A stretch of DNA of 61,805 bases from Minisyncoccia bacterium (GTDB lineage Bacteria > Patescibacteriota > Minisyncoccia > Phycocordibacterales > UBA9973), in NCBI GenBank assembly GCA_049317285.1, contig JBMOIO010000001.1:86388-148192 (forward strand), given 5' to 3'. Numbering within the stretch: position 1 is the stretch's first letter; each line of letters starts with the position of its first letter. The translations under genes were made by a program, and so were the position numbers. The notes under the pieces are model-generated. The model saw only the letters and a program-made list of their open reading frames with translations. It was not told the DNA's origin and did no database searches. Below, in pieces: positions 2,233-51,023 of the stretch.

Positions 2233-2346
2233 AGTCCTGGCAGCTACCTACTTTCCCCACAAAAGTGAGTATCATCGGTTCTACAGGTCTTAACTTCTCT
2301 GGTCGGAATGGGAAGAGGTGTGACCCCTGCGACAAACCACCAAGAC
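2233..2346 (-). rRNA. rrf: 5S ribosomal RNA
   Basis: The reverse complement reads gtcttggtggtttgtcgcaggggtcacacctcttcccattccgaccagagaagttaagacctgtagaaccgatgatactcacttttgtggggaaagtaggtagctgccaggact, which has typical 5S helices and loop motifs. Confidence 0.9.
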
Positions 2347-2546
2347 AGTGGATTCGAACAAATTATTTTTTATGTTTTTTCTGACCCCGCATAGCGCTTT
2401 CGCGCGACGTGGGGATGATTTCCAGATTTCCTAATAGGAATCGGGCAATTAGTACACCTCAGCTCAACATATTACTACGCTTCCACTTAGTGCCTATCAA
2501 CGTGATCATCTCTCACGGCCCTCAAACGATATCTAATCTTGGAACT

Positions 2547-2579
<33 letters not shown>

Positions 2580-2721
2580 ATTCCGAACATAGCTACCGGG
2601 CGGTCCAGCTGGCGCTAGAGCCCGTACACCAGAGGTTCGTTCACTCCGGTCCTCTCGTACTAGGAGCGAATTTCCTCAAATATCAACGCCTGCAGTAGAT
2701 AGGAGACCAACCTGTCTTACG

Positions 2722-3133
2722 CTTCTTTTCACTCATTACTGAGCGGAACGGACTATATCTTGTACTCTTGCGAGCACCTCAACGTGTAGTCTCTACGGGT
2801 CCCCACTTCGTTCTTACGAACTTCGCGGGGTTCCCTCGGTGTTGTCCTCTCTTGCGAGTGGGGATTTCACCGATATTAGTTGAGCATGTCATTCAATGTC
2901 ACCATTGAAGACCGCCGTAATAAGATGGTTCTCACTTTTCCCACTTCGCGCTCACGCTCCGCGGGATATATCTTTTATATACAAGTGAAATTGCAGGATC
3001 ACTTGTATACATTTTAAACGAAAAGACTAAAACAGAATTATTCTGCTGATCATTTTATTGTAAAAAATGAACAAAAATTTCCTCGGGATTCAGACGGGTC
3101 GAGCAATCACAAGATAAATCTTATAATTACTCG
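2722..3133 (-). mobile_element. group I intron-like insertion in 23S rRNA at E. coli position about 2593 (the I-CreI-type site), with no ORF
   Basis: The conserved exon sequence gggttcagaccgt | ... | cgtaagacaggttgg (E. coli GGGUUUAGAACGU|CGUGAGACAG) is interrupted by about 412 nt. The upstream exon ends in U and the insert ends in G, as expected for group I splicing. Confidence 0.7.
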
Positions 3134-3160
3134 ACGGTCTGAACCCAGCTCGCGTACCTT

Positions 3161-3193
<33 letters not shown>

Positions 3194-3446
3194 TCTCCAG
3201 CCCCGGGATAAGGTGAGCCGACATCGAGGTGCCGAACTCCGCCGTCGATATGAACTCTTAGGCGGAACTAGCCTGTTATCCCCGGAGTAGCTTCTATCCG
3301 TTAATCTTCAACCGCATCTAATGCGAATTGTCGGTTCACTATGTTCTGCTTTCGCACCTGCTCGGGATGGCCCCCTTACAGTCAAGCCAGCTTATGCCAT
3401 TGCACTATCGGCACGGTTTCCATTCGCGCCTAGCTGACCTTTGAAC

Positions 3447-3487
<41 letters not shown>

Positions 3488-3794
3488 ACCAATCAGGCAC
3501 TGTCCAACGGCGTTTTTTCCGCTGTTGTTAGAGTATGCCCATGTAAAAAGAAGTATTTCACTGACGACTCCACGCGGACCGAAATCGGCGCTTCAAAGTC
3601 TCCTTCCTATGCTACGTATTACACAAACATACCCAATACCAAACTATAGTAAAGCTTCCGGGGTCTTTTCGTCTAACTGCAGGTAACCGGCATCTTCACC
3701 GGTATTGTATTTTCACCGAGCTGGTCCCCGAGACAGTTCTCCAGTCATTACACCATTCGTGCGCGTCGGAACTTACCCGACAAGGAATTTCGCT

Positions 3795-4005
3795 CAACTA
3801 TTCCTCTCAGTTGGACTCTCTCTTTACCCTCCTCTTTCGAAGTTCGGGTCTGTGACGTTGGTCTCTCGTTAATCACAATGGACTATTTCTTCATTACGGA
3901 AGAATAGGTAGCTTGAAATGTAAATGATTATTGTATTTAATTGTTTATCGTTTTCTATAGACGGTCCTAGTCCGTTCTAGGCTCTTCAATAAAGAAAAGC
4001 CCAGA
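3795..4005 (-). mobile_element. small group I intron-like insertion in 23S rRNA at E. coli position about 1931, with no ORF
   Basis: The exon sequence acggtcctaaggt | ... | agcgaaattccttgtcgggtaagttcc (E. coli GGUCCUAAGGU|AGCGAAAUUCC) is interrupted by 211 nt. The upstream exon ends in U and the insert ends in G. Confidence 0.6.
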
Positions 4006-4040
<35 letters not shown>

Positions 4041-4785
4041 CAGGGCTTGTACAGGTCAGCTTGATATAATCGCACCACCCGTAATTAACCTTCTGGCATT
4101 GGTCAGGTGTCACCCCCTATACATACTCTTACGAGTTCGCAGGGAGCTGTGTTTTTGATAAACAGTTGCCAGGAAATCTTTCGCTGCGCCCCCCATAATG
4201 GTGAATTCAACATATAAATACATTAAATCCACCATTATGGGGGGAAGCCTTATTCCGAAGTTACGGCTGCTTGTTTGCCGAGTTCCTTGGGGATCTCTCA
4301 CTCGTTCGCCTTGGTCTACTCGACCTAACTACCTGTGTCGGTTTACGGTACGGGTTCTATAATACTAATCTTAGAAGCTTTTCTCGGAAGCATGCTCACG
4401 TGACTTACCGCTGGCGTACCAGCTATCGGGTCGTACCTGTTAGTTCAGCATTAAAGCTAGGGGCACGGATTTACCTGCGCCCCACCTTCGATACGCCCAC
4501 CACAATCCAATAAGTGGCTCACGCTACTATCCTTCGTCACTCCATCGAATATTACAGAAGTGTAGGAATATTAACCTACTGTCCATCGGCTGCGGCTTTC
4601 GCCATTACCTTAGGACCCGACTAACCCTGGGATGATCGTCATTGCCCAGGAAACCTTAGTTTTTCGGCGGGAAGGGATCTCACCTTCCTTGCGGTTACTT
4701 GTGCCAACATTCTTACTTCCACACGCTCCACCATGGCTCACGCCTTTGGCTTCACAGCAAGAGTGGAATACTCTCCTACCGCTCC

Positions 4786-5005
4786 CGAACTTCATAAAAG
4801 AAGGAATTACTCGTTTCTTTGTTTGGTCGTGAGATGGGTACTTCAAATAATAAAGAAATTTTGTCTAGGTCGTTCTTCTTAAGAGAGAACTTTTCCTACT
4901 AAAGATGAATCAGTGGGTTAAAAGGCCACTGTTCCTGCTTTGATTTCAATATATTATCCGTACCCGCTCCCACTAAAGAAACTTTCGCTTCCTTTATGAA
5001 GTTCG
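4786..5005 (-). other. IVS-like expansion of 23S helix 45 (about 220 nt where E. coli has about 22 nt)
   Basis: It lies between the conserved blocks ...ggaatactctcctaccgctcc and cgagccctcaaattcggtac... The ends form a long stem (cgaacttcataaaagaagg / gcttcctttatgaagttcg). Confidence 0.6.
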
Positions 5006-5086
5006 CGAGCCCTCAAATTCGGTACTACACTTAGCCCCGATTATCTGCGGCGCGAGATCTCTTGATGAGTGAGCTGTTACGCTTTC

Positions 5087-5118
<32 letters not shown>

Positions 5119-5692
5119 TCATTGTCTGAGAAATCTTACCTCCTTAAGACGCACTTAGTGTAAATTTAGGGACCTTATTTAGAGATCTGGGCTGTTTCCC
5201 TTTTGACTGACGGAGCTTAGCCCCCGTAGTCTAACTGCATCGTTTTTAATCCTTGGTATTCGGAGTTTGATAGGCGTCGCGAGATTGCTCCCTGTCGAAA
5301 CCTTCCAGTGCTCTACCCCCAAGGGGAACACGATACGCTAACCCTAAAGCTATTTCGGAGAGAACCAGCTATTACCAGGTTCGATTAGCTTTTCACTCCA
5401 ACCCACAAGTCATCCGAAAGCGTTGTACGACTTACCGGTTCGGACCTCCATGCGCATCTCTGCGCACTTCATCCTGCTCATGGGTAGCTCACCTGGCTTC
5501 GGGTCTCATAAGTACGACCAATTACGCGCTATTAACACTTGGTTTCCCTCTGGCTCCGGAACTTTATTCCTTAGCCGAGCCGCACTTATGAACTCGTTGG
5601 CTCATTCTTCAATAGGCACGCCGTGACGGATATAAATACCCGCTCCGACTCCTTGTAAGCATATGGTTTCAGTACTATTTCACTCCCCTCTC

Positions 5693-5737
<45 letters not shown>

Positions 5738-6577
5738 TTCTACAATGTATTTAGCCTTACCGGTTAGTTCCGGCAGATTCCTCCAAGCTATTCGTGTCTT
5801 GAAGTACTCAGGAGTAGAAACAAAAGAGGTATCTGTATTTCGAATACGGGGCTATCACCCGCTATGACGTTGGTTTCCAACAACTTCTTCTATACAAACA
5901 CTTTGTAACTCTTCTCGTAAAACGACGTTTCTATCCTACAACCCCGGTTTCCGAAGAAACCGGTTTGGGCTCCTCCCTTTTCGCTCGCCGCTACTTGGGG
6001 AATATCGCAGCTACGCTGCATTGTTTTCTTTTCCTCCCGGTACTGAGATGTTTCACTTCCCGGGGTGCGCTCCGACAACTCTTATGGTCGTCAGTAATAG
6101 AGGTTTACTCTATTGGGTTTCCCCATTCAGAAATCTCCGGGTCAAAGGTTAGAGGCACCTCACCGAAGCGTATCGCCGCCACTCGCGTCTTTCATCGCCA
6201 TGTAGAACCTAGGCATCCACCATATGCTCTTATTTCCTATTAGGAAATCTAGAAATCATGTTCCTCTCAATTCATAACAATTGAGAGGTTATTTTAACGT
6301 CCGTTGTCCTTCGACCGCTCGAGGGACATTTTCTATTGGACGGCTCTGTCTCTCCCTACCTGCAGCAGCACCGCTTCCTACCTTATCAGTTGGGAAGTGG
6401 TGCTCTTCTCTTACTCAGAGAAATGCCACGGGAGGACAGGATTGTTTTTATCAAATAACGCTCCATTTGATTCTCACAGAAAAGCCGCCGATTTCTCGGC
6501 GGCCCAAGCGACAAATTGTCAGGGCTATGCCGAGAAATATGTTGCTGTTGTTTCTGCAATACTCATTTGGTCCGGCT

Positions 6578-43304: not shown

Positions 43305-46300
43305 CTACTGCAAGCTTATCGCTTCAACAGCTGAAACAATAATTTCTTTTGCTCCCACTGTCTTTTTCATTTCATCAGAAAACAGTTCAACAATATTTTT
43401 GTACTGCTCAGGAAGAGTGAGAGTAATTACATCGTTGGGCAACAAGTTCTTTTCTTTACGAAGGTCTTGTACGGTTCGAACAAGCTCTCGATATTCCCCT
43501 TCAAGCTTCAATTCTTCTGTCATCGTCACATCAAGCTCGGGTTCTCCTACAAGTTCAGGGTCTTCAACAATCCCCTTCACATTTAGCTCATCCATAATGA
43601 TTTGCAGATATTCTTGTTTGAGTTCGAGATTTTTCACGCGAAGCGAGAGAAGTGGTTGACGTACCGGTATCATCACTTTTTTACGAAGTGCGTTTCCTGC
43701 AGTACACAGTGCCCGAACTTTCTCCATAGATTCAAGTACAGGCGTGTCCCGCAGAGCTTCTTCAGAAGCGGCGTGGGGCCACGTAGACAAATGCACACTT
43801 TCCTCATCATTAGTATTCTTCAATTTCTGCCACATATCTTCAGCAGCAAATGGTGCAAACGGTGCAATTACTTTGGTCAGCGTTTTTAGTACCGTATAGA
43901 GTGTCGCTTTCGCTTGTATGTCTCCATCCTTAATACGGTCTCGGCTTCGGCGAAGGTACCATGTGCTCAAGTCGTCCATAAAGTCGCGAAGCGCTCGCAC
44001 TGGTTCAAAGGTTTTGTACGCATCAAGGCTTTCGGTTGTCAGAGCGATGAACTGATTAAGGCGCGAGAGTATCCATGCGTCGAGCACATTGTCGCTCACA
44101 GTGTCAGTGCTTTCAACTGCTGTATCGCGATAGAGCTCATAAAACGAAAGCACGTTGTACAAGAGCCCGAACACTTGGCGCTGAAGTTCCACCACTGTTT
44201 TCTCGTCGTAGTTTTTTGAATCCCCTGGTTGATTGACCGAGTACATCCACAAGCGCAATGTATCCACGCCATACTTCGCTATCTGCTCCCATGGGTCGAC
44301 AATGTTGCCGATTGATTTGGACATTTTCTTTCCGCTCGCGTCGAGCAAGTGCCCAAGACAAATCACATTCTTGTACGCATTTCCTCGCCCCATGAGTACT
44401 CCAATCGCGTGAAGCGTGTAGAACCATCCGCGGGTTTGATCGATAGCTTCTGAAATAAAGTCGGCAGGAAAGCCAGTGCTTTCAACATACGCTTTGTTTT
44501 CAAACGGATAGTGGTGTTGCGCAAACGGCATGGCGCCTGAGTCAAACCACACATCCATCACTTCTTTGATACGGCGGTATTCTTTTCCGTCTTGCACCAA
44601 GACCACGTCGTCAATATACGGGCGATGCAGATCAAGCTCGTAGCGTTCGTTGTGCGGAAGCGGTACAAAGTCGACATGGCGGATTTCCGCATTGGCAAAG
44701 TTTACATAATCGCGCGTCGTCTCAAAAAGCTTATCAAACGAAATACCTCGTCCGTGCAGCTCAAGCGCACGAGTCACCGCACCATGCGAAATGATGAGAA
44801 TAGTTTTTCCCTGATATTTTTCTTCTATGTCATAGATAAATGCACCAGCGCGCTCTACCACTTCTACATAGGATTCTCCCCCCTCTGCTTTAAAGTTGTA
44901 TCGGTCGTCGCTACTATTTCGAACAGTGAAAAAGTCGTTGAGCGGTTTCCCGTCATAGTCGCCCCCCACTTTCCATTCGGCAAGGCGCGGGTCAGTAACA
45001 ATGGAGTCTTCCGCCATGCCAAGTGCACGCGCCATTTCCTGCGCTGTTTCAAGCGTGCGCAAAAATGGCGACGCAATAATCATGTCGATTGTTGCACCAT
45101 TTAAGCCCCTGAACGCATCAGCCACTTGCTGCACCCCAGCAGGAGTCATTGGGTCGCCGTCTTGGTTTCCATAATTCCACAACCCCTTGAGGTTGTGCTC
45201 GGTCTGGCCATGGCGCATGACAAGATACTTGTTGCCAGACTTTTTAGTGAGATTCTTCAGTGTTGCAATAGAGTCAACAATGATTCGTTGATTGTCGTCT
45301 GCCACCCATACCGGAAGCGGTGTGCCCCAGTATCGCTCGCGGGAAATCGCCCAGTCTTTAATGTTGCGAAGCCACTCCCCAAAACGCCCCTCTTTGATAT
45401 GTGAAGGCTCCCAATTGATATGTTCGTTTTGCGCGACGAGTTCTTCCCTCATGCGCTCCATGCCGATATACCATGAGTCGCGAGCATAATAGATAAGTGC
45501 AGTCTTGCAGCGCCAACAGTGCGGATAGGAGTGTTCGTACTTTTCTTTTTTAAAGAGAAGTCCGCGATGCGCCAAATCTTTTATGATATCAATAGCAACG
45601 TCTTCGTCTTTGACAAACCTTCCTTCAAAAGATCCTGTTCCTTTTACAAAGCGCCCGTCGACGCCCACAGTGTGAAATTTCGGCAAGCCCACTTTTGTGC
45701 CCAATTCAAAGTCGTCTGCTCCGTACATGACGGCGGTGTGCACAATGCCGGTACCGTCAGTGGTGGTGACAAAGTCAGCTGCATACACTTTGTATGCGTT
45801 GGGTAATTTTTCCGACTCCGCCAAAGCTCCGCCGGACACGTCCTTTTTATTCAAAAGCTCTGTGATGTACGGATACAAGGGTTCGTATTCAAGGCCGACA
45901 AGATCAGAGCCCCTTACTTCTTTTATGATTTCGTATTCCCCTTCTATTAAACTGAGACGTTCTTTTGCAAGAATAACTGTTTCAGTATTTTGCTTAACAA
46001 AAACATAGTCAATATCTGCACCAACTGCGAGTGCGACATTTCCTGGCAATGTCCACGGCGTTGTAGTCCACGCAAGAATAAAGGTATTCTCTTCGCCTTT
46101 TACTTTGAACTTTGCATACACGCTCAAATCCTTCACATCTAAATATCCTTGCGCAAGCTCGTGCGAAGCAAGCGATGTGCCACAACGCGCGCACCACGGA
46201 ATGATTTTGTAGTCTTTGTACAACAATCCTTTTTGCTCAACAGTGCCGACAATGTTCCACAATGATTCAATATATGAATTATTGAAGGTGTAATACGCAC

Positions 46301-46742
46301 CTTTTTTATCAACCCAGTACCCGATGCGGTCGGTAAAATCTTCCCAATCTTTGATGTGAGTAAACACACTATCTTTGCATTCTTTGTTAAATGCGGCGAT
46401 ACCAAAGTTTTCAATATCTTTCTTTGAAGTGAAGCCGAGCTTTTTTTCTATCTGAAGCTCAACCGGAAGCCCGTGCGTGTCCCACCCAGCGCGGCGCGGT
46501 ACATGGTAGCCCTGCATTGTTTTGTAGCGCGGGATGACGTCTTTAAATGCGCGTGCTTCGAGGTGATGGAGGGCCGGCTTTGCGTTCGCTGTAGGCGGGC
46601 CTTCGAAAAACACAAACTCACCTTTTGGCGCATCTTTCGACAAAGTCTTTTCAAAAATATTGTTTTCGCGCCAAAATGCCAAAACAGCCTCTTCACGAAG
46701 CGCTGCTAGTGATTTTTGGTTGTTGGATTCTAGATTTGACAT
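43305..46742 (-). CDS. ileS: isoleucyl-tRNA synthetase (type 2-like) carrying an inserted histidine-phosphatase domain
   Basis: 1145 aa: PPTANAKPALHH..., the editing-domain motif WTTTPWTLPGN, WAISRERYWGTPLPVW, DVWFDSGAMPF and KKMSKS. Residues about 505-700 form a PGAM/His-phosphatase-like insert (LVMRHGQTEHN...SPFLRTLETA...LAEW...IISHG). Confidence 0.95.
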   Translation of the reverse strand: MSNLESNNQKSLAALREEAVLAFWRENNIFEKTLSKDAPKGEFVFFEGPPTANAKPALHHLEARAFKDVIPRYKTMQGYHVPRRAGWDTHGLPVELQIEKKLGFTSKKDIENFGIAAFNKECKDSVFTHIKDWEDFTDRIGYWVDKKGAYYTFNNSYIESLWNIVGTVEQKGLLYKDYKIIPWCARCGTSLASHELAQGYLDVKDLSVYAKFKVKGEENTFILAWTTTPWTLPGNVALAVGADIDYVFVKQNTETVILAKERLSLIEGEYEIIKEVRGSDLVGLEYEPLYPYITELLNKKDVSGGALAESEKLPNAYKVYAADFVTTTDGTGIVHTAVMYGADDFELGTKVGLPKFHTVGVDGRFVKGTGSFEGRFVKDEDVAIDIIKDLAHRGLLFKKEKYEHSYPHCWRCKTALIYYARDSWYIGMERMREELVAQNEHINWEPSHIKEGRFGEWLRNIKDWAISRERYWGTPLPVWVADDNQRIIVDSIATLKNLTKKSGNKYLVMRHGQTEHNLKGLWNYGNQDGDPMTPAGVQQVADAFRGLNGATIDMIIASPFLRTLETAQEMARALGMAEDSIVTDPRLAEWKVGGDYDGKPLNDFFTVRNSSDDRYNFKAEGGESYVEVVERAGAFIYDIEEKYQGKTILIISHGAVTRALELHGRGISFDKLFETTRDYVNFANAEIRHVDFVPLPHNERYELDLHRPYIDDVVLVQDGKEYRRIKEVMDVWFDSGAMPFAQHHYPFENKAYVESTGFPADFISEAIDQTRGWFYTLHAIGVLMGRGNAYKNVICLGHLLDASGKKMSKSIGNIVDPWEQIAKYGVDTLRLWMYSVNQPGDSKNYDEKTVVELQRQVFGLLYNVLSFYELYRDTAVESTDTVSDNVLDAWILSRLNQFIALTTESLDAYKTFEPVRALRDFMDDLSTWYLRRSRDRIKDGDIQAKATLYTVLKTLTKVIAPFAPFAAEDMWQKLKNTNDEESVHLSTWPHAASEEALRDTPVLESMEKVRALCTAGNALRKKVMIPVRQPLLSLRVKNLELKQEYLQIIMDELNVKGIVEDPELVGEPELDVTMTEELKLEGEYRELVRTVQDLRKEKNLLPNDVITLTLPEQYKNIVELFSDEMKKTVGAKEIIVSAVEAISLQ

Positions 46743-46780
46743 AGTAGGATTTTAATATAAAATAGAGAAAATTTATAATT

Positions 46781-46975
46781 ATGGATAAGAAAAAAGAAAT
46801 TGAAAAAATGTCTCCGGTAGATGCATACAACAAAGCAGTTGATGATTGTGCCCAAAGTGCTGATATTAAATGCGTTGGCGATCCCGCAACAATGGGTTAT
46901 CAAAATGCTTCACCAAGAGACATTAAGTTTTTTGATGTAGATACTGAGACAATTTTGAAAAACAAAATCAATTAA
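46781..46975 (+). CDS. small hypothetical ORF (64 aa), doubtful
   Basis: It lies antisense within the roughly 230-nt spacer between the T-box terminator and the ileS start. No homology was recognised, and it may be spurious. Confidence 0.3.
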   Translation: MDKKKEIEKMSPVDAYNKAVDDCAQSADIKCVGDPATMGYQNASPRDIKFFDVDTETILKNKIN

Positions 46976-47165
46976 AAACCCGCCCACAGAAATAATCGTT
47001 TAGATTATTTCCAAGGGCGGGATTTTTTTATTCCGCGGTACCACCTTAGTTTGATCTCATTACTGCTATAACGGGCATACCCGCCGGGGTCTAAGTCCCG
47101 CATAGTCCGAAGGACGGCGTGGGATTCTTCCCGAAGCTCAGGGGTGATAGCCCCGTCAATGCTTA
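46974..47165 (-). promoter_or_regulatory. T-box riboswitch leader with an Ile (AUC) specifier, upstream of ileS
   Basis: Minus-strand RNA features:
- A GGGG-CUAUCA-CCCC hairpin with AUC+A in the loop (47141-47154).
- An F-box-like CCGUUA.
- The T-box core AAGGUGGUACCGCGG (47033-47047).
- An antiterminator UAAGG[UGGUACC]GCGG...CCGC-CCUUG.
- A competing terminator CCCGCCC...GGGCGGG+UUUUU (46974-47021).
- An extended -10 element TGcTATAAT at 47173-47181. Confidence 0.75.
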
Positions 47166-47243
47166 TACTTACATTATAGCACATAATACCTTTTTAGACG
47201 AGAGTGATATATCAAGATTTTTCGCCTATTGGAGGGGTCAGAA

Positions 47244-47858
47244 CTAGTGGCTTGCGGGGTCTATCATAGCGATAATGCGCTCAATCAAGCGCTTTGGGTC
47301 GCTGTCATAAATAATTTTCTCTGACGGGCGATTACTCTTTTCCATCAAGTCTTTGATCTGTTCGTCCATAGTCCACGGACCCTCAAGAACACCAATCGGC
47401 TTTCCGTCTTCATAGGCAATAGTAAACTCGTGGATTGTGCCGATACGTCCGCATCCGATAATCACCGCGTCACAACTGCGCGTAAACAACAAGTCGCGTC
47501 CTGGAAATCCAAAGCCGGTGTAAATGATGAGGTCCATATAGTCGACCGGCAAGCGATATGTTTCGAGGTGCTCTTTCTGTGTTGCTGCAGGAGAAAGCCC
47601 GATCGATACTCCATGTTCTTCCTTTGCACCCATCGCAGCCCACAATGGGAAGCCTGCTGTTGCACCAGTAATAACAATGCCTCCCTGTTTGATAACTTGG
47701 CGCCCCAGTTCTTTTGCCGACTCAAGGGCGTTGAGTCCACAATGACCTGTTTCTGCAGCACCACTGATACCAATCTTAACGCGCAAATGACCGTGCTTGT
47801 CAGAAGTTTCAAGCGGGCCATTGTAATAATATTGTGGTGTAGAGTTTCCTTCGTGCAT
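47244..47858 (-). CDS. SLOG/LOG-like Rossmann protein (TIGR00725-type)
   Basis: 204 aa: KIGISGAAETGHCG...ELGRQVIKQGGIVITGATAGFPLWAAMGAKEEHGVSIGLSP. Confidence 0.7.
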   Translation of the reverse strand: MHEGNSTPQYYYNGPLETSDKHGHLRVKIGISGAAETGHCGLNALESAKELGRQVIKQGGIVITGATAGFPLWAAMGAKEEHGVSIGLSPAATQKEHLETYRLPVDYMDLIIYTGFGFPGRDLLFTRSCDAVIIGCGRIGTIHEFTIAYEDGKPIGVLEGPWTMDEQIKDLMEKSNRPSEKIIYDSDPKRLIERIIAMIDPASH

Positions 47859-50534: not shown

Positions 50535-51023
50535 TTATAAAATAATTTCTATGTCTTTTGTTACGGTAAAAATCTTAACACAATCTTTTAAACCGATTGA
50601 TTTACAGTATTCAATAAATTCCCTGGGAAGTGGTCCAGGACCGAGCCATACGCTCCGCTGCACCATATTATATCCAAATTCTCGCAATTGATGACGAAAC
50701 CATTCCCTTTCCCCTTTTCTATTTTCAGGAATATCAAAAAGTACCAACAGTTTCTTTTTCGCATTACTCAAAGAGGTACGATCAAATAATTTTAGTTTTA
50801 CAGCTATAGATTCTCCGTATACAATCCCGAGCTTTCGCACCATGATACGGTCCGAGCCTTCGCGCTGTATCATGTTCTTTTTCAAAAGTTTTGTAATAGC
50901 ATTCTCAACAGACCGGTGTTTGTACAGAGAAAAAACAGGGAGGCCAAGTGCACTCACGGGCATTCCTTTATATCGATACTTTGGTTCCAACAGTAATTGT
51001 AAAATTTTGTCTTCAATACTCAT
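50535..51023 (-). CDS. winged-helix plus Cas2-like/PaaX-like ferredoxin-fold domain protein (putative regulator)
   Basis: 162 aa with an N-terminal wHTH. It is followed by KKKLLVLFDIPENRKGEREWFRHQLREFGYNMVQRSVWLGP, a beta-alpha-beta pattern with a conserved Asp as in Cas2 and the PaaX core. Confidence 0.6.
   Translation of the reverse strand: MSIEDKILQLLLEPKYRYKGMPVSALGLPVFSLYKHRSVENAITKLLKKNMIQREGSDRIMVRKLGIVYGESIAVKLKLFDRTSLSNAKKKLLVLFDIPENRKGEREWFRHQLREFGYNMVQRSVWLGPGPLPREFIEYCKSIGLKDCVKIFTVTKDIEIIL

What the first reader, a model, noticed from the sequence alone, without database searches (positions are those of the whole stretch)
44658..45230. Histidine-phosphatase (PGAM-like) domain inserted in-frame inside the catalytic core of IleRS
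The ileS ORF is 1145 aa. Between the conserved blocks WAISRERYWGTPLPVW (about residue 478) and DLHRPYIDD...EVMDVWFDSGAMPF (about residue 704 onward), ordinary type-2 IleRS, as I recall Thermus IleRS, has only a short linker of about 50 aa. Here about 195 extra residues (about 505-700) read as a complete branch-1 histidine phosphatase:
- LVMRHGQTEHN (the RHG catalytic Arg-His plus Asn)
- IIASPFLRTLETA (second Arg)
- DPRLAEWKVGGDYDGKP (Glu)
- ILIISHGAVTRAL (second His)

All catalytic residues look intact, and there is no stop or frameshift at either junction. I do not know of a described aaRS with an embedded phosphomonoesterase domain. It suggests a second enzymatic activity coupled to Ile-tRNA charging, possibly acting on a tRNA-end phosphate or a nucleotide/metabolite phosphate. 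That functional idea is pure speculation.
Basis: partly seen in the sequence, partly recalled or inferred. Interest (0 to 1): 0.8.

Follow-up and report, generated by a model that had tools for sequence, protein, structure and literature searches.

The report
Phosphatase domain nested inside isoleucyl-tRNA synthetase
The enzyme that loads isoleucine onto tRNA in this tiny-genome (Patescibacteria/CPR) bacterium carries a complete, apparently active phosphate-removing enzyme inserted in a surface loop; this undescribed design is conserved in hundreds of related species and recurs in their valine enzyme.

Summary
Residues 505-695 (nt 44658-45230, minus strand) of the 1145-aa ileS product are a full branch-1 histidine phosphatase (Pfam His_Phos_1, E=4e-31). 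It sits at the tip of the CP3 subdomain of a type-2 IleRS, where about 211 residues replace about 16 in P. megaterium IleRS2.

- **Not a chimera:** all 120 best orthologue clusters carry the domain, and at least 577 species-level Paceibacteria genomes do.
- **Conserved:** the catalytic set R510/H511/N517/R562/E589/H653 is invariant in 120 orthologues. dN/dS is 0.06, like the synthetase core.
- **Folds well:** AF2 gives pLDDT 95 for the domain alone. The closest folds are PspA, PhoE, GpgP, TIGAR and CobC, not dPGM.
- **Housekeeping host:** the IleRS passes the ileS equivalog cutoff, keeps KMSKS and the editing motifs, and lies behind an Ile (AUC) T-box.

Going beyond the finding, related domains are nested in ValRS of Peregrinibacteria and Gracilibacteria (73 of 120 clusters, 1-4 copies). 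They also occur at other sites in IleRS. Free-standing relatives share the same consensus.

The substrate is unknown. I favour an autonomous phosphomonoesterase lodged in a permissive loop, with a tRNA-end or aminoacylation-coupled role as the main rival. No literature describing this was found. Novelty: new variant of a known kind. Interest: 0.7.

The parts
43305..46742 (-). ileS ORF, 1145 aa: type-2 isoleucyl-tRNA synthetase with a nested histidine phosphatase
   Evidence: - ORF listed.
- TIGR00392 ileS scores 866.6 bits, above the 621.4 cutoff.
- Best solved relatives are P. megaterium IleRS2 8c8w (E=4e-230) and Thermus 1ile.
- The AF2 full-length model has pLDDT 84.3 and pTM 0.75.
- Foldseek target-normalised TM-scores (TMt) are 0.79 to 8c8v and 0.87 to 1ile.
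45303..46742 (-). aa 1-480: first Rossmann half, CP core, CP1 editing domain and CP2
   Evidence: - Pfam tRNA-synt_1 covers aa 20-500.
- The editing motif WTTTPWT lies at 46050-46070.
- This stretch aligns to 8c8w residues 8-468.
46563..46574 (-). Signature motif ALHH (aa 57-60), the non-canonical G/AXHH form of HIGH
   Evidence: - Translation checked.
- H59 and H60 are invariant in 87 orthologues.
- PMC10485003 links this motif to mupirocin hyper-resistance in IleRS2.
45231..45302 (-). CP3 N-terminal flank (aa 481-504, ADDNQRIIVDSIATLKNLTKKSGN). The CxxC zinc knuckle of relatives is lost here.
   Evidence: - Translation.
- Distant relatives L006, L076 and L083 keep CxxC...CxC around the insert.
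- N504 is invariant.
- pLDDT is about 92-93.
44658..45230 (-). Nested branch-1 histidine phosphatase domain (aa 505-695)
   Evidence: - Pfam PF00300, E=4e-31.
- AF2 on the domain alone gives pLDDT 95.1 and pTM 0.92.
- Foldseek matches GpgP, PspA, TIGAR, PhoE and CobC at E about 1e-12.
- The PDB profile search puts PspA 4ij5, PhoE 1ebb and CobC 6nru on top.
- dN/dS is 0.059.
45210..45215 (-). R510-H511 of the RHG motif (H511 is the predicted phospho-accepting nucleophile)
   Evidence: - Codons checked.
- 120 of 120 orthologues keep both residues.
- 97% of 78 IleRS-nested domain representatives (single-copy hosts) keep them, and 100% of tandem copies do.
45192..45194 (-). N517, phosphate-pocket residue
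   Evidence: Invariant in 120 of 120 orthologues.
45057..45059 (-). R562, second phosphate-binding arginine
   Evidence: Invariant in 120 of 120 orthologues and in 100% of all groups compared.
44976..44978 (-). E589, predicted general acid/base
   Evidence: Invariant in 120 of 120 orthologues and kept in 94% of distant representatives.
44784..44786 (-). H653, second catalytic histidine (SHG)
   Evidence: Invariant in 120 of 120 orthologues and kept in 97-100% of all groups.
44568..44657 (-). CP3 C-terminal flank (aa 696-725, PHNERYELDLHRPYIDDVVLVQDGKEYRRI)
   Evidence: - Translation.
- P696, D704, L705, H706, P708 and D711 are invariant.
- This stretch aligns to 8c8w from residue 485 onward.
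44163..44567 (-). Second Rossmann half, with DVWFDSG (44535-44555) and KMSKS (44313-44327)
   Evidence: Motif coordinates checked; these residues are invariant in orthologues.
43329..44081 (-). Anticodon-binding helical domain (aa 888-1031) and type-2 C-terminal domain (DUF5915, aa 1036-1138)
   Evidence: Pfam PF08264 at E=4.4e-32 and PF19302 at E=3e-11.
47010..47168 (-). T-box leader upstream of ileS. Stem I is reduced to the hairpin CGGGG-CUAUCA-CCCC (47141-47155), which presents AUC (Ile). The T-box motif GGUGGUACCGCGG lies at 47033-47045.
   Evidence: - Rfam RF00230 scores 49.7 bits, E=7.4e-10, below the gathering score of 93.
- Sequence read; coordinates.
- The same leader sits directly in front of ileS in L001.
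- The motif is found upstream of ileS in 34 of 69 related loci.
46974..47021 (-). Terminator-like hairpin of the T-box (CCCGCCC...GGGCGGG followed by UUUUU)
   Evidence: Sequence; coordinates.

Best explanation
**Tier 1 (shown, about 0.9).** aa 505-695 is a genuine, complete branch-1 histidine phosphatase of the short PhoE/PspA/CobC type, with intact catalytic residues. It is nested at the tip of the CP3 subdomain of the housekeeping type-2 IleRS of a Paceibacteria (Patescibacteria/CPR) bacterium, and that ileS lies behind a T-box leader. The polypeptide is an old, vertically inherited protein under strong purifying selection, carrying two enzyme modules. The synthetase part keeps every IleRS hallmark.

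**Tier 2 (inferred from family chemistry).**
- H511 attacks a phosphomonoester and forms a phospho-histidine intermediate.
- R510, N517, R562 and H653 hold the phosphate.
- E589 protonates the leaving group and then activates water.

**Tier 3 (my leading guess, about 0.45).** The phosphatase is an autonomous housekeeping phosphomonoesterase acting on a small phospho-ester or nucleotide. It is not a step of aminoacylation. It has been lodged in a structurally permissive surface loop of an essential enzyme. As a result it is made 1:1 with the synthetase and under the same control, which would suit very small genomes with few regulators. The substrate is not identified.
For: **Identity and fold.**
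- Pfam His_Phos_1, E=4e-31.
- The PDB profile search puts PspA, PhoE and CobC on top.
- AF2 gives pLDDT 95 for the domain alone.
- Foldseek matches GpgP, PspA, TIGAR, PhoE and CobC.

**Intact chemistry under selection.**
- The six catalytic residues are invariant in 120 orthologues.
- They are 91-100% kept in 78 distant representatives and in all tandem copies.
- dN/dS is 0.059, against 0.036-0.063 for the core and 0.106 for the C-terminus.

**Real and old.**
- 120 of 120 best clusters carry the domain.
- At least 577 species genomes do, and all 86 inspected loci hold it inside a long ileS ORF.
- There is no compositional break across the insert.

**Host is the working IleRS.**
- The ileS equivalog cutoff is passed.
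- KMSKS, DVWFDSG and WTTTPWT are present.
- The fold is preserved.
- A T-box with an AUC specifier lies upstream.

**Evidence that the module is autonomous and the loop permissive.**
- Free-standing proteins of 190-205 aa are 43-49% identical to nested copies and share their subfamily consensus in the substrate cap.
- Insertion site and copy number vary: CP3; after WFESG; before the anticodon domain; after CP1 in ValRS. Copy number runs from 1 to 4.
- Unrelated domains (GNAT, IS200-like Y1_Tnp) are nested in one such IleRS, P0233. NCBIfam holds an 'ileS_w_GNAT' model.
- CP3 has a different topology in every solved IleRS (PMC7191050).
- Presence in ValRS is patchy within the clade.
Against: **No activity, substrate or geometry was measured.** I had no model coordinates, so I could not say where the phosphatase pocket faces relative to the synthetic site or the tRNA path.

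**Points that argue for functional coupling rather than hitch-hiking.**
- Among the 150 best representatives, the only host proteins identified are IleRS and ValRS; many hits are fragments with no host motif.
- Nesting is much rarer than end-to-end fusion, yet here it recurs.
- The junctions are predicted with high confidence (pLDDT above 90), which suggests rigid docking.

**A derived substrate cap.** The window's own sub-clade has a conserved cap (W522, W590, R608, R614, Y615, K618, R658) rich in basic and aromatic residues. That would suit a nucleotide-like or RNA ligand.

**Gaps in the survey.** I could not survey whole genomes. I therefore do not know whether a free-standing copy coexists with the nested one, or whether this is the only ileS.
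Confidence: 0.5

Rival explanations
1. The phosphatase is a cis-acting site coupled to aminoacylation. It would remove a blocking 2'/3'-terminal phosphate from the tRNA acceptor end (end-healing before charging). Alternatively it would act on a nucleotide produced or bound at the synthetic site. In either case physical tethering to IleRS or ValRS is itself what is selected.
For: - The only hosts identified among the best 150 representatives are IleRS and ValRS.
- 73 of 120 ValRS clusters around P0283 carry PF00300.
- In ValRS the domain sits at the homologous position between WGHxIPVW and DTWFSS.
- All insertion sites lie in the connective-peptide or second-Rossmann-half region, and none is at a terminus.
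- The junctions are confidently modelled.
- The window's sub-clade has a conserved basic and aromatic cap.
- Precedent from my own knowledge, not tested here: the HD domain of E. coli CCA-adding enzyme has phosphatase and 2',3'-cyclic phosphodiesterase activity, proposed to repair tRNA 3' ends.
Against: - Free-standing homologues share the same consensus, so the enzyme works without a synthetase.
- The cap is not conserved across the wider nested family.
- Varying sites and 1-4 diverged copies argue against one precise geometry.
- A general tRNA-end repair activity would not need to be restricted to Ile and Val.
- No geometry could be computed.
Confidence: 0.25
2. The domain is a regulatory or protein-directed module. 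It would be a phosphoprotein (pHis/pSer/pThr/pTyr) phosphatase that reverses inhibitory phosphorylation of the synthetase or a partner. Alternatively it would be a phospho-metabolite sensor that tunes IleRS activity.
For: - The histidine-phosphatase superfamily includes protein phosphatases such as SixA, PGAM5 and Sts (own knowledge). Sts/UBASH3 chains appear among the weaker PDB profile hits.
- The catalytic residues are intact.
- Toxin kinases that phosphorylate synthetases are known for GltX and TrpS (own knowledge).
Against: - The closest sequence and fold matches are small-molecule phosphatases.
- No kinase partner was seen among the neighbours I annotated: RecO, a class II aaRS, ArgRS, NDK and a beta-CASP nuclease.
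- Tandem arrays of up to four copies are hard to explain this way.
Confidence: 0.1
3. The domain is catalytically irrelevant. It would be a structural spacer or binding platform that merely replaced the CP3 zinc knuckle.
For: - The window's clade has lost the CP3 cysteines that distant relatives keep.
- Some distant members vary the residue after the second His (SHE, SHQ, THS) or have RHA.
Against: - All six catalytic residues are invariant in 120 orthologues, and 91-100% are kept in distant and tandem copies.
- dN/dS is 0.06.
- A spacer would not keep a phosphate pocket.
Confidence: 0.05
4. The feature is an assembly or gene-calling artefact: a chimeric contig that joins a phosphatase gene into ileS.
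For: None found.
Against: - The same architecture occurs in 120 of 120 clusters from four independent data sources.
- It occurs in at least 577 species genomes, on contigs up to 804 kb.
- The junction residues are conserved (N504, Y506, P696, D704-H706).
- There is no GC break.
- The one apparent in-frame stop (L046) is a run of N.
Confidence: 0.01

Closest known systems
Type-2 isoleucyl-tRNA synthetase (IleRS2): P. megaterium 8C8U-W, T. thermophilus 1ILE, D. radiodurans
   Same: - Whole-protein homology: E=4e-230 to 8c8w; Foldseek target-normalised TM-scores 0.79-0.87.
- KMSKS, the editing motifs and the type-2 C-terminus are present.
- The ALHH signature motif is identical to that of D. radiodurans IleRS2 (PMC10485003).
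   Different: - About 211 residues, holding a whole phosphatase domain, replace the roughly 16-residue tip of CP3.
- The CP3 zinc-knuckle cysteines of Thermus and P. megaterium are lost in this clade.
Short free-standing branch-1 histidine phosphatases: PhoE/YhfR (1EBB, 1H2E), PspA phosphoserine phosphatase (4IJ5), CobC (6NRU, 6E4B), GpgP Rv2419c (4PZ9)
   Same: - Same fold, a size of about 190 aa, and the same catalytic R-H...N...R...E...H set.
   Different: - Only 18-24% identity.
- Every NCBIfam equivalog falls far below its cutoff: CobC 75.8 against 162.9; PspA 43 against 350.
- Those enzymes are independent proteins, whereas this one is nested in a synthetase.
- The substrate here is unknown.
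NCBIfam NF040702 'isoleucine--tRNA ligase, N-acetyltransferase domain-containing' (ileS_w_GNAT)
   Same: - It is a curated precedent for an IleRS that carries an extra catalytic domain.
- One relative, P0233, carries both a GNAT and a His_Phos_1 domain.
   Different: - The window protein has no GNAT domain and scores 323 bits against a cutoff of 1999.
- The added domain belongs to a different enzyme class.
Rv2228c-type bifunctional RNase H / CobC-like acid phosphatase (NCBIfam NF005567)
   Same: - A branch-1 histidine phosphatase joined to a nucleic-acid enzyme in one polypeptide.
- The insert matches the phosphatase half of this model at 62 bits.
   Different: - That protein is an end-to-end fusion, not a nested insertion.
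- The partner is RNase H, not a synthetase.
- The score is below the cutoff of 326.
Other synthetase-enzyme fusions, e.g. Mycoplasma penetrans MetRS with N-terminal ancillary domains (PMC13215547)
   Same: A reduced-genome bacterium enlarges an essential synthetase with extra domains (abstract seen).
   Different: That is a terminal fusion with a different kind of domain. Here the added enzyme is inserted inside the Rossmann-fold connective peptide.

Membership tests
Histidine phosphatase superfamily, branch 1 (Pfam PF00300) | Profile match above the curated threshold | tested here: met
   108.6 bits against a cutoff of 21.7, E=4e-31, aa 507-680, covering profile positions 2-174 of 194.
Histidine phosphatase superfamily, branch 1 (Pfam PF00300) | RHG motif with nucleophilic His, plus the second Arg, second His, Asn and the acidic proton donor | tested here: met
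   R510, H511, G512, N517, R562, E589 and H653 are present. The six catalytic residues are invariant in 120 orthologues (G512 118/120). They align to the catalytic positions of PspA and PhoE.
Histidine phosphatase superfamily, branch 1 (Pfam PF00300) | Alpha/beta fold of the family | tested here: met
   AF2 gives pLDDT 95.1. Foldseek gives probability 1.00 and query-normalised TM-scores (TMq) of 0.70-0.76 to GpgP, PspA and PhoE.
Histidine phosphatase superfamily, branch 1 (Pfam PF00300) | Phosphatase or mutase activity through a phospho-histidine intermediate | not testable with these tools
   Needs an enzyme assay with an H511A control.
Cofactor-dependent phosphoglycerate mutase (dPGM) | Equivalog-level match to a dPGM model (these enzymes are longer, about 230-250 aa) | tested here: not met
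   dPGM models score 29-50 bits against cutoffs of 225-316. The domain is about 190 aa. dPGM and BPGM structures rank below the short phosphatases and align with rmsd 7-8 Å.
CobC alpha-ribazole phosphatase / PspA phosphoserine phosphatase | Equivalog-level match | tested here: not met
   TIGR03162 scores 75.8 against 162.9. NF045917 scores 43.1 against 350. NF011580 scores 42 against 250.
Isoleucyl-tRNA synthetase (TIGR00392) | Equivalog profile above cutoff | tested here: met
   866.6 bits against 621.4, in two stretches split by the insert.
Isoleucyl-tRNA synthetase (TIGR00392) | Class I signature motifs and the CP1 editing motifs | tested here: met
   KMSKS at aa 806-810, DVWFDSG and WTTTPWT are present. 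HIGH is replaced by the documented non-canonical ALHH.
Isoleucyl-tRNA synthetase (TIGR00392) | Cognate regulation or specificity for tRNA-Ile | tested here: inconclusive
   A sub-threshold T-box (49.7 bits, E=7.4e-10) with AUC in the Stem I loop lies upstream. It is conserved in L001 and in 34 of 69 loci by motif. Charging specificity itself was not testable.
IleRS type 2 (IleRS2) | Closest to IleRS2 rather than IleRS1, with a type-2 C-terminus | tested here: met
   IleRS2 8c8w matches at E=4e-230, against IleRS1 8c9f at 4.5e-99. DUF5915 forms the C-terminal domain. The G/AXHH motif is found only in IleRS2 (PMC10485003).
MupA/MupB acquired mupirocin-resistance IleRS | Exception-model match above cutoff | tested here: not met
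   750 and 738 bits against a cutoff of 1900.
ileS_w_GNAT (NF040702) | GNAT domain within IleRS, with the model above cutoff | tested here: not met
   323 bits against 1999, and no GNAT Pfam hit.

The most novel reading that the evidence does not exclude
The nested phosphatase is a third active site of the synthetase that works on the tRNA itself. It would strip a blocking 2'/3'-terminal phosphate (or a toxin-added phosphate) from the CCA end, so that IleRS in Paceibacteria, and ValRS or IleRS in Peregrinibacteria and Gracilibacteria, both repair and charge their tRNA. That would be a tRNA end-healing synthetase, evolved repeatedly in ultra-small episymbiotic bacteria.
Probability: 0.2. Interest if true: 0.9.

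Novelty: new variant of a known kind. Interest (0 to 1): 0.7.

Why it matters
Aminoacyl-tRNA synthetases are among the most conserved and best-studied enzymes. Their known additions are editing, tRNA-binding or signalling modules.

**What is unusual here.**
- A complete, selected phosphomonoesterase sits inside the Rossmann-fold connective peptide.
- It is fixed in at least 577 Paceibacteria species.
- It recurs, in 1-4 copies, in ValRS and IleRS of other Patescibacteria.
- I found no paper describing this architecture.

**What it offers.**
- A tractable case of domain nesting in an essential enzyme.
- A possible new link between phosphate metabolism, or tRNA-end chemistry, and translation in organisms with minimal genomes.
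- A clade marker.

**A practical annotation problem.** Where a source gives a name, insert-bearing enzymes are mostly labelled only 'class I tRNA ligase family protein'. Automated metabolic reconstructions could therefore score IleRS or ValRS as missing, or miss the phosphatase.

Tried and rejected
- **Word-index search with the insert alone.** It returned only 23 weak hits and missed even the orthologues, so it was uninformative. The exhaustive profile search replaced it.
- **Single-sequence genome scan.** It found only 6 loci. The profile scan was needed.
- **Apparent in-frame stop inside the domain in L046.** This is a run of N in the record, not a split gene.
- **Free-standing relatives.** I looked at the gene neighbourhoods of P0235, P0201 and P0239 for a synthetase or tRNA link. 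The contigs are 1-5.6 kb, with unannotated or unrelated neighbours, so nothing was learned. P0254 is not on record for gene context. It comes from a dinoflagellate transcriptome and is not relevant to CPR.
- **Genome scan for the P0168-type (site-2) IleRS.** It found only distant Peregrinibacteria matches at 26-30% identity.
- **dPGM, CobC or PspA identity.** Rejected on the curated cutoffs.
- **Literature.** Four searches that returned results and three targeted readings found no mention of a phosphatase in any synthetase. The readings covered the AARS Online domain catalogue and two IleRS evolution papers. Two further searches failed on term syntax. The CCA-enzyme preprint had nothing on phosphatase domains in Patescibacteria.
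- **Geometry.** No model coordinates are exposed. I could not measure where the phosphatase pocket lies relative to the synthetic site, the editing site or a docked tRNA.


Full report
**1. What is there**

The minus-strand ORF 43305..46742 encodes a 1145-aa protein.
- Pfam finds a class I synthetase catalytic domain split in two (aa 20-500 and a later part), an anticodon-binding domain and the type-2 C-terminal DUF5915.
- Between the halves it finds His_Phos_1 at aa 507-680: E=4e-31, 108.6 bits against a cutoff of 21.7.
- NCBIfam's ileS equivalog is passed, 866.6 against 621.4 bits, again in two stretches.

**2. Where exactly the insert sits**

Against P. megaterium IleRS2 (8c8w), query 11-490 aligns to chain 8-468 and query 702-1059 to chain 485-849. 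So about 211 residues replace about 16.
- The flanks are native IleRS sequence: ...VDSIATLKNLTKKSGN before the insert, and PLPHNERYELDLHRPYIDD... after it.
- In the C. albicans IleRS structure paper, the segment between CP2 and the second Rossmann half is the CP3 subdomain.
- CP3 carries a zinc-binding motif in Thermus IleRS and has a different topology in each solved IleRS (PMC7191050).
- Distant relatives of the window protein (L006, L076, L083) still have CxxC...CxC on either side of the phosphatase. The window's clade has lost these cysteines.

The domain is therefore nested at the tip of the CP3 hairpin. CP3 is a peripheral and variable insertion of the catalytic domain, not the catalytic core proper.

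**3. Not an artefact, and old**

- All 120 best orthologue clusters (62-86% identity; NCBI, JGI, ENA and Logan; contigs up to 804 kb) carry PF00300 together with the IleRS domains.
They are named Paceibacterota, Nomura-, Zambryski-, Taylor- and Kaiserbacteria, Minisyncoccia and Parcubacteria.
- In all 86 loci fetched, the domain lies inside a long ileS ORF. The shorter ORFs are cut off by contig ends.
- One apparent stop (L046) is a run of N.
- GC content does not change across the insert.

**4. Is it a working enzyme?**

- The catalytic set of branch-1 histidine phosphatases (R510, H511, N517, R562, E589, H653) is invariant in 120 orthologues.
- It is 91-100% kept in 78 more distant nested representatives.
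- Against the closest relative (L001), dN/dS is 0.059 for the insert. The two catalytic halves give 0.036 and 0.063, and the C-terminal domains give 0.106. dS is about 1.4, so this is near saturation.
- AF2 folds the domain alone at pLDDT 95.1.
- Within the full protein it reaches pLDDT of about 90-95, with equally confident junctions. The IleRS body keeps its fold: target-normalised TM-scores are 0.79 to 8c8v and 0.87 to 1ile.
- By sequence profile and by fold, the nearest solved proteins are short phosphatases: PspA 4IJ5, PhoE 1EBB/1H2E, CobC, GpgP Rv2419c, TIGAR and the riboflavin-pathway histidine family phosphatase (HFP, PDB 9mmh). dPGM and BPGM structures align worse.
- No NCBIfam equivalog (CobC, PspA, dPGM, PhoE-like) comes near its cutoff.

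It is therefore a generic member of the short-phosphatase group, and its substrate is unknown.

**5. The host is the housekeeping IleRS**

- KMSKS, DVWFDSG and the editing motif WTTTPWT are intact.
- The signature motif is ALHH. This is the non-canonical G/AXHH form that Brkic et al. found only in IleRS2 and tied to mupirocin hyper-resistance. D. radiodurans ALHH has a Ki of 6.6 mM (PMC10485003).
- Upstream, at 47010-47168, lies a reduced T-box leader (49.7 bits, E=7.4e-10, below Rfam's gathering score).
  - Its Stem I is a short hairpin presenting AUC, the Ile codon.
  - A terminator-like hairpin follows.
  - The same leader directly precedes ileS in L001.
  - The T-box motif is upstream of ileS in 34 of 69 related loci.
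- The neighbours are ordinary housekeeping genes.

**6. The wider picture, beyond the finding**

An exhaustive profile search over 1.84 billion representatives gave 131 hits at E<=1e-30.
- **IleRS with tandem copies.** Besides single-insert IleRS, there are IleRS proteins with two tandem His_Phos_1 domains.
- **Other insertion sites.** Copies also occur after WFESG...PYAS and just before the anticodon-binding domain (P0166, P0168, P0191, P0204, P0212).
- **ValRS hosts.** P0283 has two copies and is confirmed on a 47.8-kb contig with Val_tRNA-synt_C. P0146 has four.
- **Same position in ValRS.** One copy sits at the homologous position between WGHxIPVW and DTWFSS.
- **How common in ValRS.** Of the 120 best ValRS clusters around P0283, 73 carry PF00300. 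They are named Peregrinibacteria, Gracilibacteria or DOLZORAL124, and others in the same set lack the domain.
- **Species genomes.** These show ValRS insertions in Peribacteria, a Sungiibacteriota and DOLZORAL124_38_8, but not in Nomurabacteria ValRS. Peregrinibacteria IleRS has two tandem copies in CP3.
- **Catalytic residues.** The tandem copies analysed keep the R, H, R, H residues.
- **Mixed cargo.** One IleRS (P0233) carries an IS200-like Y1 transposase domain, a His_Phos_1 domain and a GNAT domain. NCBIfam already holds an 'ileS_w_GNAT' model.
- **Free-standing relatives.** Proteins of 190-205 aa are 43-49% identical to nested copies and share their consensus in the substrate-cap region.

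**7. How it most likely works**

- **Shown:** the domain is a complete phosphatase under purifying selection with an intact catalytic set, inside a functional-looking IleRS.
- **Inferred from family chemistry:** H511 forms a phospho-histidine intermediate, R510, N517, R562 and H653 bind the phosphate, and E589 is the acid/base.

What it dephosphorylates is not known.

I lean (about 0.45) to an autonomous small-substrate phosphomonoesterase lodged in a permissive loop, so that it is made 1:1 with the synthetase and under its control. The reasons are:
- free-standing homologues share the same consensus;
- insertion sites and copy numbers vary;
- CP3 is structurally plastic;
- other unrelated domains nest in the same enzymes;
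- presence in ValRS is patchy.

The main rival (about 0.25) is direct coupling: tRNA acceptor-end dephosphorylation, or action on a nucleotide at the synthetic site. It is favoured by:
- the fact that the only hosts identified are IleRS and ValRS;
- recurrence at the homologous site in two paralogous enzymes;
- nesting rather than terminal fusion;
- confident junctions in the model;
- the basic and aromatic cap conserved in the window's own sub-clade.

A protein-phosphatase or sensor role (about 0.1), a dead structural module (about 0.05) and an artefact (about 0.01) rank lower.

**8. Comparison with what is known, and novelty**

As a synthetase, the protein is a member of IleRS2 (tests met). 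As a phosphatase, it is a member of His_Phos_1 branch 1 (sequence, residues and fold met; activity untestable). It is not dPGM, CobC or PspA, because their equivalog tests failed.

The combination is the new element.
- Searches of open literature and preprints found nothing on a phosphatase within any synthetase.
- The AARS Online domain catalogue lists none.
- The architecture is visible in databases only as precomputed Pfam hits.
- Where a source gives a name, these proteins are mostly labelled 'class I tRNA ligase family protein'.

I rate it a new variant of a known kind, that kind being synthetases enlarged by accessory or fused domains. Interest is 0.7: an aaRS specialist would be surprised by the nesting, its antiquity and its recurrence. 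The function, which would decide how important this is, remains open and is directly testable.

Noticed in passing
window 47010-47168 (-), with hairpin 47141-47155, T-box motif 47033-47045 and terminator 46974-47021: A reduced T-box leader lies in front of ileS. Stem I is shrunk to a short hairpin whose loop (CUAUCA) presents the Ile codon AUC. It scores 49.7 bits (E=7.4e-10), below Rfam's gathering score of 93. The same leader sits immediately upstream of ileS in L001, and the motif is found upstream of ileS in 34 of 69 related Paceibacteria loci.
   Followed up: partly
window 46563-46574 (-), aa 57-60: The class I HIGH signature is replaced by ALHH, and H59/H60 are invariant in 87 orthologues. 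This is the non-canonical G/AXHH motif reported only in IleRS2 and linked to mupirocin hyper-resistance (PMC10485003). It is identical to the D. radiodurans motif.
   Followed up: partly
window 46743-46973, with a + strand ORF at 46781-46975: An AT-rich spacer of about 230 nt (GC 0.33-0.36) separates the T-box terminator from the ileS start codon. It holds a 64-aa ORF on the opposite strand (MDKKKEIEKMSPVDAYNK...). In the closest relative, L001, the terminator is about 20 nt from the ATG, so this spacer looks like a lineage-specific insertion. I did not test whether the small ORF is real.
   Followed up: no
window 2429-6243 (-), 2729-2934 (-), 2235-2344 (-): A 23S rRNA gene is interrupted by a group I intron (RF00028, 52.2 bits), and a 5S rRNA lies next to it. 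From my own knowledge, rRNA introns are typical of CPR bacteria.
   Followed up: no
P0283/L087 703-5319; P0146; loci L088-L092: Valyl-tRNA synthetases of Peregrinibacteria, Gracilibacteria and Peribacteria (and one Sungiibacteriota) carry 1-4 His_Phos_1 domains. One sits at the position homologous to the IleRS insert, and another sits after the CP1 editing domain. Of the 120 best ValRS clusters around P0283, 73 have PF00300.
   Followed up: partly
P0166, P0168, P0191, P0204, P0212; loci L169, L170, L194: IleRS of Peregrinibacteria/Peribacteria type (canonical HYGH motif) carries two His_Phos_1 domains. They are either tandem in CP3 or placed after WFESG...PYAS and just before the anticodon-binding domain. 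The P0168 cluster occurs on contigs up to 1.06 Mb. All copies keep the catalytic R, H, R, H residues.
   Followed up: partly
P0233 (JGI, 1066 aa, 11.3-kb contig): One IleRS carries three foreign domains in frame: an IS200-like Y1 transposase domain inside the CP1 region (aa 340-461), His_Phos_1 in CP3 (680-854), and a GNAT acetyltransferase after DCWFESG (935-1063). I did not check whether this is a real protein or a gene-call or assembly oddity.
   Followed up: no
window 45231-45302 and 44568-44657; L006, L076, L083: The CP3 zinc-knuckle cysteines (CxxC...CxC) flank the phosphatase in distant relatives. In the window's clade they are replaced by ADDNQ and VQDGKE. The insertion therefore predates the loss of the zinc site.
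   Followed up: partly
(names given by sources): Most insert-bearing IleRS and ValRS that have an NCBI name are called 'class I tRNA ligase family protein', while some insert-free relatives are named 'valine--tRNA ligase'. The inserts seem to defeat the equivalog naming rules. That could make these synthetases look absent in automated reconstructions.
   Followed up: no
window 50535-51023 (-) and 47244-47858 (-): A 162-aa protein has a PaaX-middle/Cas2-like domain (E=2.8e-12). A 204-aa SLOG cluster-4 (LOG-like) protein lies directly upstream of the ileS leader. Neither was investigated.
   Followed up: no
P0254, P0262, P0266, P0268, P0269, P0211: Free-standing proteins made of two tandem His_Phos_1 domains (363-450 aa) rank among the best hits to the insert profile. 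P0254 comes from a dinoflagellate transcriptome (Gymnodinium smaydae), so tandem duplication of this domain is not confined to CPR synthetases.
   Followed up: partly
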